From Eledone cirrhosa (taxonomy: Eukaryota), in contig OZ024741.1 of the NCBI GenBank assembly GCA_964016885.1, positions 189,782,001 to 189,846,000 of the forward strand: 64,000 bases of DNA. The letters are read 5' to 3'. The position numbers and the translations under genes were made by a program. This document shows, piece by piece, positions 25,752-28,999 of this stretch. Position 1 is the stretch's first letter, and each line of letters opens with the position of its first letter. The notes under the pieces were generated by a model. That model ran no database searches and was not told the DNA's origin. It saw only the letters and a program-made list of their open reading frames with translations.

Positions 25752-26201
25752 GTGCAAAAGTTTTATTTAAAATTGTTGGGTTACAACAAGTAAATATTTT
25801 ATAACTGATATAAAGCACTCGACAAGTTTTTGGAGTAGATATACGATATTAAACAAATGGAAACTATATTTATAAAACCATATTTATTTCATTATACATA
25901 TTTCGGGGATACCATATTAAAAATATGGCATGCCTTTGTCAGATAAAATACAATATATAAACAGTTTTATAAATAATTTTGACGTACCATAAATATGAGC
26001 GACCATTATGTAGGAAGCTGGTTTTCCTACATAATGGTCGCTCATATTTATGGTACGTCAAAATTATTTATAAAACTGTTTATATATTGTATTTTATCTG
26101 ACGAAGGCATGCCATATTTTTAATATGGTATCCCCGAAATATGTATAATGAAATAAATATGGTTTTATAAATATAGTTTCCATTTGTTTAATATCGTATA
26201 T
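25752..26201 (-). mobile_element. (TA)n-flanked asymmetric palindrome with a hammerhead ribozyme motif
   Basis: Inverted repeat 25839-26201 (~178-bp arms, 7-nt loop), left arm extended ~85 bp; relative at 28100-28370. Confidence 0.8.
26090..26155 (+). ncRNA. Minimal type-I hammerhead ribozyme motif
   Basis: Stem I UAUUUUAU, core CUGACGA, stem II (GGcAUGCCAUAUU/AAUAUGGUAUcCC), GAAA, U-AUGU-A, UA cleavage site, then AUGAAAUA (stem I partner). Confidence 0.7.
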
Positions 26202-26211
26202 ATATATATAC

Positions 26212-26740
26212 AAAGTGCAGGGCAATAAAGATAGATGGTAGCCACAGAATAGGCAGACCTAGAAAAACCTGGGACGAGCTGATAAACTCCGACCTCACAC
26301 ACTTACACCTCTCCAAGACAATGTCACTGGACCGAGACCTTTGGCGGTACTCAGTAACAGAGAAGACCCGCCTTGCCAGTAGGCATCTCTAACAAAATAC
26401 ACCCCGTCCCGCCACCACCCCCACCCCATCCACACCACCCCGTTCTATGTAAAGTTATGTTGGTGCCGCGCCATCCAGGCCGAAACAAATGAGATCGTGT
26501 AGGTGTCACGACAAAAAAACACACAGTCCACGCTGTAATGTGGCCGTGTAGGCAACATGGTAAAAACCTCCCAGACCCACACTGTAAATGTGGTTGGTGT
26601 TAGGAAGGGCATCCAACTGTAGAAAACCCGCCAGACAGTCCTATGCGAGCAAGACAATCACTCTTGCCTCAAGTGGGACTACCCCCGTCCAAACCCATGC
26701 AAGCGTGGAACACGGACGTTAAACGTTGATGATGATGATG
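26212..26740 (+). mobile_element. RTE LINE 3' end, nearly identical to 13503-14070
   Basis: Direct sequence comparison; (TA)n on both flanks. Confidence 0.9.
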
Positions 26741-26984
26741 ATATATATATATATATATATATATATATATATATATATATATATATATATATATATATAT
26801 ATACACACATATATATATATATATATATATATATATATAATAGTAGAACACTGAGAGGTTATAACCATAGTAGTAGAGCACTCAGTCCATGGGATGAGTT
26901 TGGTAAAAGTAGTTCCACAACAGTTAGTTGGAACTACTTCTATATATATATATATATTGTAGGCTTCATTAACTAAGAATGTAG

Positions 26985-27993
26985 GCTTCACATGTAACAG
27001 CTGTGCTGGGACAGCAAGCAGCAAACGACCACAGGAAACAAGCACCACCAAACTCTGGGAGGGCTCTGTAGAAACAGTAGACAGCTTCTGCTACCTAGGT
27101 GACCGAATTAGCAGCGGAGGTGGGTGTTCTGAAAGTACAATAACTAGGATAAGAACGGGATGGAAGAAGTTCAGGGAACTACTGCCACTGCTAGCTGCAA
27201 AAGGCTTCTCCCTCAAAATGAAAGGCAGACTGTATGATGCGTGTATCCGAACAGCAATGTTACATGGTAGTGAGACCTGGGCGCCGAAGGTGGAAGACTT
27301 GCGTAGATTAGAAAGAAACGAAGCCTGCATGCTCCGGTGGATGTGTAATAGTAATATACGCGAACGGCAAAGCATAAATGAATTGAGAGAGAGACTGAGC
27401 ATCAGAGAAATCAAATGCTGTGTGCAGGAGAGGAGGTTTCGTTGGTATGGACATGTGATGCGTATGAAGGATGACAGCTGTATAAAAAGGTGCAGAACAC
27501 TAGAAGTCGATGGAAGCTGTGGAGTGGGGAGACCCAAGAAGACCTGGGATGAGGTGATAAAGGCCGACCTTACCCAGTTGCACCTCTCAAGAGCAATGAC
27601 ACATGACCGTGACCTCTGGCGTCACGCAGTAATACAGAAGACCCGACCCTCCCCACCCCACCCCCACCCCAGAGGAACGAGGCAAAGCTGAAGCATATAG
27701 ACAATATGCCCCCACACCCTCCCACTGCAAAGTGGTCGTGGAGGTGCCATGGCAAAAAAGCACCCAGCCCACATGGTAAAGTGGACATGTAGGCGCCACA
27801 GAAAAAAAGCACCCAGTACTCACTGTAAATGAGGTTGGTGTTAGGAAGGGCATCCAGCTGTAGAAATCAAGCCAGAATCAGTTCCCATCTGAGCAAGACA
27901 AGGTCAGCTGACTGGACTCTGCCCAGAAGAGGACAACCCGTCTAACCCATGCTAGCGTGGAAGAACGGGCATAAAACGGTCATGATGATGATG
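26985..27993 (+). mobile_element. RTE LINE 3' part (second subfamily)
   Basis: ORF 27218-27691 with RTE C-terminal motifs, 3' UTR and (GAT)n. Confidence 0.9.
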
Positions 27994-28143
27994 ATATATA
28001 TATAAAATAAGAGTCGTTAAGACAGGGTTATTTCATCATCATCATCATCATCATTGCTTTACGTCCATTTTTCCACGCTAGTATATATATATATATATAT
28101 ACACGATATTAATAAATGGAAACTATATTTATAAAACCATATT

Positions 28144-28208
28144 TATTTCATTATACATATTTCAGGGATACCAAATTAAATTATGGTATGCCTTCATCAG
28201 ACAAAATA
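28144..28208 (-). ncRNA. Minimal type-I hammerhead ribozyme motif (paralogue of 26090-26155)
   Basis: Minus strand UAUUUUGU CUGAUGA AGGcAUACCA..UGGUAUcCCU GAAA UAUGUA UA AUGAAAUA; intact core. Confidence 0.72.
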
Positions 28209-28999
28209 CAATATATAACAGTTTTACAAATAAGCTTTGACGTACCCTATTAAAATGCAACCATTATTTTTGGAAGCCATCCGGATACTCCAAATACTTG
28301 TCGAGTGCTTTATATCAGTTATAAAAATATTTACTTGTTGTATCCCAACAATTTTAAATAGAACTTTTGCATATATATATATATATATATATTTATTTAG
28401 GTTTGAGGTTATTTCTGATAGTTATACTGATTATTTGTCAGTTATACAATGGGGCAGTAGTCATTACAGAGTAATATAGAAAGTATGTAATGTGACAGCT
28501 GTGGCCAGGTGATATCCATCGCTCTCATACCAATGATTTGTGCAGGATGGTTGTTTTGCTGGGAGGTTTGGGGTAGGGTTTTGAAGAATATGTTTGAATT
28601 TTAATTTATGTCTTGTGTGGTATGTATCTGGTGAGTGGAGTTGAGTGTAGGATTATGATTTACATTTGCTTGAGTTCATGAATAGTATGGGTTTGATATA
28701 GATTTCTTTACATAGTGGTTGTGTAGGTGTCACAACACAAAGCACCCAACCCACACTGTAAAGTGGTCATGTAGGTGTCATGGCAAAAATCACCCAGCAC
28801 ACACTGTAAATGTGGTTGGCATTAGGAAGGGCATCCAGCCATAGAAACCAATCCAGAATCAGTTCTGTGTGAGCAAAACACAGTCTCAAACAAGACACCC
28901 ATCTAACCCATGCTAGTGTAGAAGAATGGCCATTAAACGGTGATGATGATGACAATATATATATATATATATATATATATATATATATATATATATATA

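What the first reader, a model, noticed from the sequence alone, without database searches (positions are those of the whole stretch)
25752..28370. Best-preserved hammerhead pair, with structure-preserving differences between paralogues
26090-26155 (+) and 28144-28208 (-) both fold as minimal type-I hammerheads. Most differences keep the pairing: N7 is C versus U, stem II has G-U versus A-U, and stem I has A-U versus G-U. The third copy, in the left palindrome arm (~25885-25950, -), has CUGACAA, a loss of core G8. The quasi-palindromic stem III (AUAUGUAU) fits the dimer-cleaving PLE type.
Basis: partly seen in the sequence, partly recalled or inferred. Interest (0 to 1): 0.75.

Follow-up and report, generated by a model that had tools for sequence, protein, structure and literature searches.

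The report
Penelope retrotransposon stubs carrying hammerheads
The two predicted self-cutting RNA motifs are real but are not a working pair: they are the ends of two separate, cut-short insertions of a very common Penelope-like jumping gene, a group already known to carry such motifs.

Summary
A strict descriptor gives 2 hits in the window and 0 in 100 random controls. They are not a pair. They lie on opposite strands, in two separate head-to-head insertions into (TA)n, from subfamilies about 88% alike. The family is a Penelope-like element with Hydra-clade motifs: 20 of 20 long-ORF loci carry the hammerhead behind an RT plus GIY-YIG-type frame. A 28-nt piece of the ribozyme has 44,431 exact matches in the genome.

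The core looks selected: 65 of 67 sampled copies keep CUGANGA, N7 takes all four bases, and stem II has two-sided changes. The third copy's G8A is a private CpG change. The 26090 copy would be buried in its own palindrome. None of 83 copies starts at the cut site. Cleavage is untested.

The hammerhead, inverted arm and one-sided tail are published PLE features, and this scan noted the same layout on other DNA of this genome. Verdict: a new family of a known kind, low interest.

The parts
25753..26024 (-). Insertion 1, left arm: 5'-truncated pLTR copy with the long 3' end (includes the 91-nt tail at 25753-25843), pointing into (TA)n
   Evidence: 97% to the 3' end of ORF-bearing unit L054; junctions
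25885..25950 (-). Third hammerhead, core CUGACAA (G8A; C-to-T at 25937 in a CpG), likely a private change after insertion
   Evidence: only difference from the right-arm hammerhead; 0 of the first 100 listed of 1,355 subfamily matches carry it
26024..26196 (+). Insertion 1, right arm: 5'-truncated pLTR copy with the short 3' end, then (TA)n; forms a 181-bp palindrome with the left arm
26090..26155 (+). Type-I hammerhead motif, intact core; predicted cut after A26147
26065..26173 (+).
   Evidence: 93.6% of cells paired in 42 distinct copies, one-sided changes only; pair probability 0.63-1.00
26210..28000 (+). Unrelated DNA between the two insertions: two fragments of another high-copy repeat, one with an ORF at 26963-27691 (RTE-like label recalled, from no call), plus microsatellites
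   Evidence: many copies in the window, no match to the PLE unit body
28104..28287 (-). Insertion 2, left arm: pLTR copy of another subfamily, short 3' end into (TA)n (inner boundary approximate)
   Evidence: 97.6% to L062, 87-88% to L054 and L070
28144..28208 (-). Type-I hammerhead motif, intact core; predicted cut after the A read at 28152
28286..28371 (+). Insertion 2, right arm: tail only, long 3' end into (TA)n
   Evidence: 95-98% to the tails of L062 and L054

Best explanation
These are two separate, cut-short, head-to-head insertions of the ribozyme-bearing end (pLTR) of a high-copy Penelope-like retrotransposon with Hydra-clade motifs, and at this locus they are likely inert passengers rather than a working ribozyme pair. 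Shown: the link to an RT plus endonuclease ORF, the (TA)n targets, two fixed 3' ends 91 nt apart, one long and one short end in every two-armed unit detected, and core conservation across subfamilies. Inferred: the element's protein cuts both strands of a TA repeat, each broken end primes reverse transcription at one of two internal start sites just upstream of the ORF, both cDNAs run back through an uncleaved hammerhead, and they join head to head at short homologies. Inferred from published PLE hammerheads: in active master elements the motif self-cleaves weakly, probably as a dimer through the self-complementary stem III or with the protein's help.
For: Upstream of copies L031 and L032 lies an RT frame followed by a GIY-YIG-type frame. 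In 20 long-frame loci: DKT 20, RW[KR]A 17, CxCX5C 19, CxxC..E 20, N..CxH 20, [YF]RDD 20, DKG 0; a sense hammerhead behind the ORF in 20 of 20, a direct second copy ahead of the ORF in 6, an inverted copy in 8. These are the Hydra-clade motifs of PMC8557442 section 11, and the ORF matches its supplementary alignment by eye. 44,431 and 44,753 exact matches for two adjacent motifs, reversed controls 0. 59 of 59 head-to-head units detected in 140 loci are long+short; 28 of these come from loci not picked for that layout. Core intact in 65 of 67; parsimony changes N7 5, base after A9 6, C3 2, U4/G5/A6/G8/A9 0. Whole-palindrome fold gives probability 0.00 for every hammerhead helix of the 26090 copy. 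Two internal RT starts, extension of both strands and uncleaved template are reported for Poseidon_Ac (PMC11167929).
Against: No cleavage or RNA data. Pfam gave only an irrelevant weak hit, NCBIfam and PDB sequence search gave nothing, and the single-sequence model was unusable, so the RT, endonuclease and clade calls rest on motifs and a by-eye match, not on a tree. Units are about 3.8-4.1 kb, longer than the 'generally <3 kb' of Hydra, and the tail is 91 nt against the 30-40 bp described. The number of pairs with two-sided change (4) does not exceed shuffles (411 of 500 reach it); the excess in cells is inflated by relatedness. The 3' half of the sample was picked by pattern, so its invariance is circular. 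In about 120 nt of context another fold beats the hammerhead fold by 3-5 kcal/mol.
Confidence: 0.9

Rival explanations
1. The two intact copies are a locally functional pair that cleaves as a dimer, kept by selection at this locus.
For: Both keep the core and a self-complementary stem III/loop (duplex -2.2 kcal/mol); they lie 2 kb apart.
Against: Opposite strands; separate (TA)n junctions; different subfamilies, each matching its own relatives better; about one such motif per 67 kb genome-wide; the 26090 copy is buried in a 181-bp hairpin if the palindrome is transcribed; 27 other loci are identical over 174 nt, so 'preservation' is youth.
Confidence: 0.03
2. The units are a non-autonomous retrozyme family that spreads through small circular RNAs.
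For: Short, ORF-less, hammerhead-bearing, high copy; copies span the cut site intact (67 of 83), which a ligated circle would also give; retrozymes are proposed to derive from pLTRs (bioRxiv 10.64898/2026.07.22.740005).
Against: No head-to-tail monomer arrays here; arm lengths vary; the same sequence is continuous with the ORF-bearing unit.
Confidence: 0.04
3. The motif is kept as a structural or protein-binding element of the pLTR and no longer cleaves.
For: 0 of 83 copies begin at the cut site; a competing fold dominates in prediction, with stem I probability under 0.5 in 37 of 42 copies; hammerhead mutants did not affect insertion in vitro for Poseidon_Ac.
Against: Variation falls on N7 and the base after A9 and spares the catalytic positions, the pattern expected if catalysis is selected; a core-deleting variant has only 5 matches genome-wide.
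Confidence: 0.2

Closest known systems
Hydra-clade Penelope-like elements, including Hydra-1_Obim (Craig et al. 2021, PMC8557442; section 11, passages, supplement rows and part 2 of 59 read)
   Same: C-terminal endonuclease; DKT, CxCX5C, CxxC and CxH motifs; (TA)n targets; type-I hammerhead near the 3' end, often with an extra base after A9; inverted 5'-truncated copy with a one-sided tail.
   Different: RWR rather than RWK; unit about 3.8-4.1 kb with a 1.3-1.7 kb 3' region; 91-nt tail; hammerhead sequence unlike the listed Hydra-1_Obim motif; tens of thousands of copies.
Minimal hammerheads of metazoan PLEs (Cervera and de la Pena 2014, PMC4209133; parts 1-2 of 4 read)
   Same: Type I, long stem II, tiny palindromic stem III, unpaired base between 9 and 10.1 in one of two possible registers, mostly single dispersed copies from truncated PLEs, dual copies on opposite strands.
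   Different: Stem I is long here (8 bp plus a 12-bp outer helix) rather than 4-5 bp; 10.1-11.1 is G-U or A-U more often than G-C.
Poseidon_Ac of Anolis (Frangieh et al. 2024, PMC11167929; parts 1-2 of 4 read)
   Same: Two fixed 3' ends that define a tail; AT-rich targets; copies made from uncleaved RNA.
   Different: Different clade; both ends lie upstream of the ATG (long end 48-49 nt before it) rather than inside the ORF; both ends are followed in the element by a short TA-like run that resembles the target.
Metazoan non-LTR retrozymes (PMC7229834, passages; bioRxiv 10.64898/2026.07.22.740005, part 1 of 5)
   Same: Short non-coding genomic copies with a type-I hammerhead.
   Different: Retrozymes are head-to-tail monomer arrays; these are head-to-head stubs continuous with an autonomous element.

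Membership tests
Type-I hammerhead ribozyme | CUGANGA, GAAA and UH core in type-I order with three stems | tested here: met
   third copy fails at G8
Type-I hammerhead ribozyme | Core conserved while N7 and stems vary | tested here: met
   5' core intact in 65 of 67 (4 of 71 set aside: 3 truncated, 1 internal deletion); parsimony counts; the 3' core was part of the search pattern and is not a test
Type-I hammerhead ribozyme | Covariation in the stems | tested here: inconclusive
   A-U/G-C and U-A/C-G changes in stem II; cells 28 against 13.8 shuffled, but pairs 4 against 4.2; related sequences
Type-I hammerhead ribozyme | Match to an Rfam hammerhead model | tested here: not met
   no hammerhead family listed even at E up to 10
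Type-I hammerhead ribozyme | Site-specific self-cleavage | not testable with these tools
   needs an in vitro assay
Endonuclease-positive Penelope-like element | Single ORF with RT then C-terminal GIY-YIG endonuclease | tested here: met
   about 740-aa frames with [YF]RDD and a YVGST endonuclease motif in 20 of 20 loci; by motif and by-eye match to the published alignment; profile libraries gave no support
Endonuclease-positive Penelope-like element | pLTRs in partial tandem or inverted, with a one-sided tail | tested here: met
   direct copies in 6 of 20, inverted in 8 of 20; 59 of 59 long+short units
Hydra clade | DKT instead of DKG | tested here: met
   20 of 20 DKT, 0 DKG
Hydra clade | N-terminal RWK motif | tested here: inconclusive
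   present as RWR in the same place, RW[KR]A in 17 of 20
Hydra clade | CxCX5C linker; CxxC and CxH around the conserved E and N; no CCHH | tested here: met
   19, 20 and 20 of 20; CCHH checked only by a crude pattern on L054, none found
Hydra clade | (TA)n insertion and a hammerhead | tested here: met
   30 of 30 right flanks begin with TA repeats; hammerhead in 20 of 20
Hydra clade | Generally shorter than 3 kb (a tendency in the paper, not a strict criterion) | tested here: not met
   3.8-4.1 kb
Hydra clade | RT phylogeny groups with Hydra families | not tested
Non-LTR retrozyme | Head-to-tail tandem monomers each with a hammerhead | tested here: not met
   head-to-head stubs at both window loci
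Non-LTR retrozyme | Circular RNA | not testable with these tools
   no RNA run available to lay

The most novel reading that the evidence does not exclude
This family is a natural record of how Penelope-like elements build mirror-image insertions: both ends of one TA break copy the front end of one uncleaved RNA from two start sites marked by twin bulged hairpins, and the hammerhead, held off by a competing fold, acts as a delayed switch on the mRNA leader rather than as a template-processing step. Support: strict long+short rule; 23 of 30 short arms break off within about 30 nt of one point upstream of the ribozyme (by eye); 4 of 20 long arms stop at the short start site; no copy starts at the cut.
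Probability: 0.3. Interest if true: 0.5.

Novelty: new member of a known kind. Interest (0 to 1): 0.17.

Why it matters
As stated, the finding adds one more PLE hammerhead family to a published class, and the locus itself is two of tens of thousands of stubs. Its use is practical: a young, abundant family with open ORFs of about 740 aa and several subfamilies offers natural variants for testing what PLE hammerheads do and how the head-to-head, one-tail insertions arise, both still open in the papers read.

Tried and rejected
Rfam, gathering and E up to 10: no hammerhead hit. Pfam, NCBIfam and PDB sequence search on the ORF: nothing useful. Single-sequence AlphaFold model: mean pLDDT 32.5, not used, no fold search run. 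ESM Atlas gave no result. Sequencing runs: no RNA holder listed; none laid. A core-deleting variant seen twice in the sample looked like a spreading ribozyme-less lineage; only 5 matches genome-wide, rejected. The 'short+short' class was an artefact of a loose look-ahead; replaced. My notebook's '84-nt tail' is corrected to 91 nt. A pile-up of 5' junctions at the cut site was sought and not found, 0 of 83. Stem II register could not be decided: without an extra base the first three pairs hold in 57, 66 and 64 of 67; with an extra base after A9 two pairs hold in 66 and 67 of 67. Sequence look-up in earlier findings returned nothing. Literature: three searches showed no paper describing this family; only Hydra-1_Obim and Naiads are listed for Octopus in the supplement rows seen. 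Subscription papers, Repbase, Dfam and bioRxiv supplements were not seen and may hold it.

Full report
Observation. The motifs are real. A descriptor scan of the window finds 26090-26155 (+), 28144-28208 (-) and 25885-25950 (-) among 9 loose hits. With an intact core and at least 8 bp of stem I there are 2 hits in the window and none in 100 Markov-1 controls. Each has stem I of 8 bp, CUGANGA, a long stem II, GAAA, a 2-bp stem III around AUGU, then UA. The cut would fall after A26147 and after the A read at 28152. Rfam does not detect them. ViennaRNA gives stems I and II but never stem III (probability 0.00; closing it costs 3.3 kcal/mol); the 8-nt stem III/loop pairs with itself at -2.2 kcal/mol.

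Differences between the two intact copies. N7 C/U, stem I A-U/G-U and stem II G-U/A-U are as reported, and all are one-sided. The C/U change breaks a pair if A10.1 pairs directly, and keeps one (G-C/G-U) if the base after A9 is unpaired, as in published PLE hammerheads (PMC4209133, parts 1-2 of 4). Both registers fit the family sample. The third copy differs from the 26090 copy only by C-to-T at 25937, in a CpG; none of the first 100 listed of 1,355 subfamily matches has it.

What the DNA is. The window is part of a 3.0-Gb animal assembly; 'octopus-like' comes from earlier scan notes and is not established here. The 26031-26204 stretch has 27 other loci identical over its length among 40 candidates scored of 784. 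Two adjacent motifs have 44,431 and 44,753 exact matches, with reversed controls at 0. All 30 loci end at the same base and run into (TA)n. Upstream of two of them lies an RT frame and then an endonuclease frame. A protein search returned many frames of 700-780 codons; I fetched 20 of the longest. They carry DKT 20, RW[KR]A 17, CxCX5C 19, CxxC..E 20, N..CxH 20, [YF]RDD 20 and DKG 0 of 20. The hammerhead lies behind the ORF in all 20, with a direct copy ahead of the ORF in 6 and an inverted copy in 8. These are the Hydra-clade motifs of PMC8557442 (section 11), whose supplement lists hammerheads for the Hydra families and an Octopus member with a different hammerhead sequence. Against this: profile and structure searches gave no support, no tree was built, and units are 3.8-4.1 kb.

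Anatomy of the locus. Insertion 1 (25753-26196) is a left arm with the long 3' end and a right arm with the short 3' end, joined head to head as a 181-bp palindrome. Insertion 2 (28104-28371) is a hammerhead arm with the short end and a tail-only arm with the long end. Insertion 1 is 96-98% like L054 and L070; the hammerhead arm of insertion 2 is 97.6% like L062 and 87-88% like those. The DNA between them is other repeats with no match to the element body. So the two intact hammerheads come from separate events and lie on opposite strands. The two 3' ends are 91 nt apart, and the long one lies 48-49 nt before the ATG in tandem units. In 140 loci, 59 head-to-head units were detected, all long+short: 19 picked on a short arm, 9 picked on the ORF, 4 positional (two are the same unit), and 27 picked on the layout itself and so uninformative. 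An inverted pLTR with a one-sided tail is published (PMC8557442 passages; PMC3846280 passages).

Is the ribozyme selected? I took 71 copies from the start of contig C1, picked on the 3' half only. Four lacked a usable 5' half. Of 67, 65 keep CUGANGA; N7 is U, A, G or C. On a tree of 42 distinct copies N7 changes 5 times and the base after A9 6 times, C3 twice, and U4, G5, A6, G8 and A9 never. 93.9% of cells pair, and stem II shows A-U/G-C and U-A/C-G changes (28 cells against 13.8 shuffled), but the number of such pairs does not exceed shuffles and relatedness inflates the cell count. The 5' half was located with a pattern that allows three mismatches, which favours intact cores slightly. A 12-bp outer helix extends stem I. 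I read this as selection in the master elements, not at this locus.

Would these copies cleave? If the palindrome is transcribed, all hammerhead helices of the 26090 copy drop to probability 0.00. Even alone, in about 120 nt of context, another fold is 4.9 and 3.0 kcal/mol more stable than the hammerhead fold for the two copies, and stem I probability is under 0.5 in 37 of 42 copies; these predictions ignore tertiary contacts, dimers and protein. Of 83 copies picked on sequence downstream of the cut, 67 span the whole motif and none starts at the cut, so templates were uncleaved or rejoined. That matches Poseidon_Ac, where unprocessed RNA is the main substrate, RT starts at two internal sites, both strands are extended and the ribozyme needs the protein (PMC11167929, parts 1-2 of 4). 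PLE minimal hammerheads cleaved poorly in vitro, and only as dimers or with an extended stem III.

Mechanism. Shown: family, targets, two ends, long+short rule, core conservation. Inferred: a double-strand cut in (TA)n, priming of each end at one of two sites, copying back through the intact ribozyme, and head-to-head joining. By eye, 23 of 30 short arms break off within about 30 nt upstream of 26031, and both window loci fit, which suggests an RNA start about 75 nt ahead of stem I. The query was cut at such a junction, so this is a lead. Four of 20 long arms stop at the short site, while 9 positional arms do not, so copying of one RNA by both ends is suggested, not shown. Small bulged hairpins follow each end by 7-10 nt.

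Prior knowledge and verdict. Hammerheads in pLTRs, their dispersal as single truncated copies, opposite-strand doublets, the tail and the Hydra clade are all in print. Three literature searches showed no description of this family; Repbase, Dfam and bioRxiv supplements were not seen. Earlier notes of this scan describe the same layout, the twin hairpins and the RNA-start idea on other DNA of this genome; they are unchecked notes and are not counted as support. Verdict: observation confirmed, pair interpretation not supported, new member of a known kind, interest 0.17.

Noticed in passing
window 41408-41485 (+), element about 41220-41590: Type-I hammerhead of an unrelated (TA)n-inserted fold-back family (2,162 first-look candidates). 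Its core is CCGANGA (U4C) in 11 of the 12 nearest loci, the window's own included, and CUGAUGA in one (biased by the query), so a U4C subfamily seems to have spread.
   Followed up: partly
L058 (oriented) about 2391 and 2481; window 25817-25838 (-) and 28289-28310 (+): Twin bulged hairpins 7-10 nt behind the short and the long 3' end; both ends are followed in the element by a short TA-like run resembling the target.
   Followed up: partly
L075-L103: 24 of 26 long arms in loci shaped like insertion 2 are tail-only (76-101 nt) with slightly different junctions, which suggests recurrent events rather than one mini-element (loci picked on this layout).
   Followed up: partly
L178, L199, L224-L228: Deletion that removes the GAAA box between short direct repeats; 5 matches genome-wide.
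   Followed up: yes
L069 about 6965 and L073 about 800 (oriented): A sister hammerhead family with the same stem I and a different stem II.
   Followed up: no
window 35540-40400: G-rich tandem array with a 70-bp unit, about 67 copies.
   Followed up: no
window 5732-5795 (+), repeats at about 29680-30009, 45181-45396, 58736-58969, 60619-60793: tRNA-like match just above the Rfam cut-off inside a dispersed repeat, likely a tRNA-derived SINE.
   Followed up: no
window 6415-6806: Another long palindrome, 196-bp arms with no spacer.
   Followed up: no
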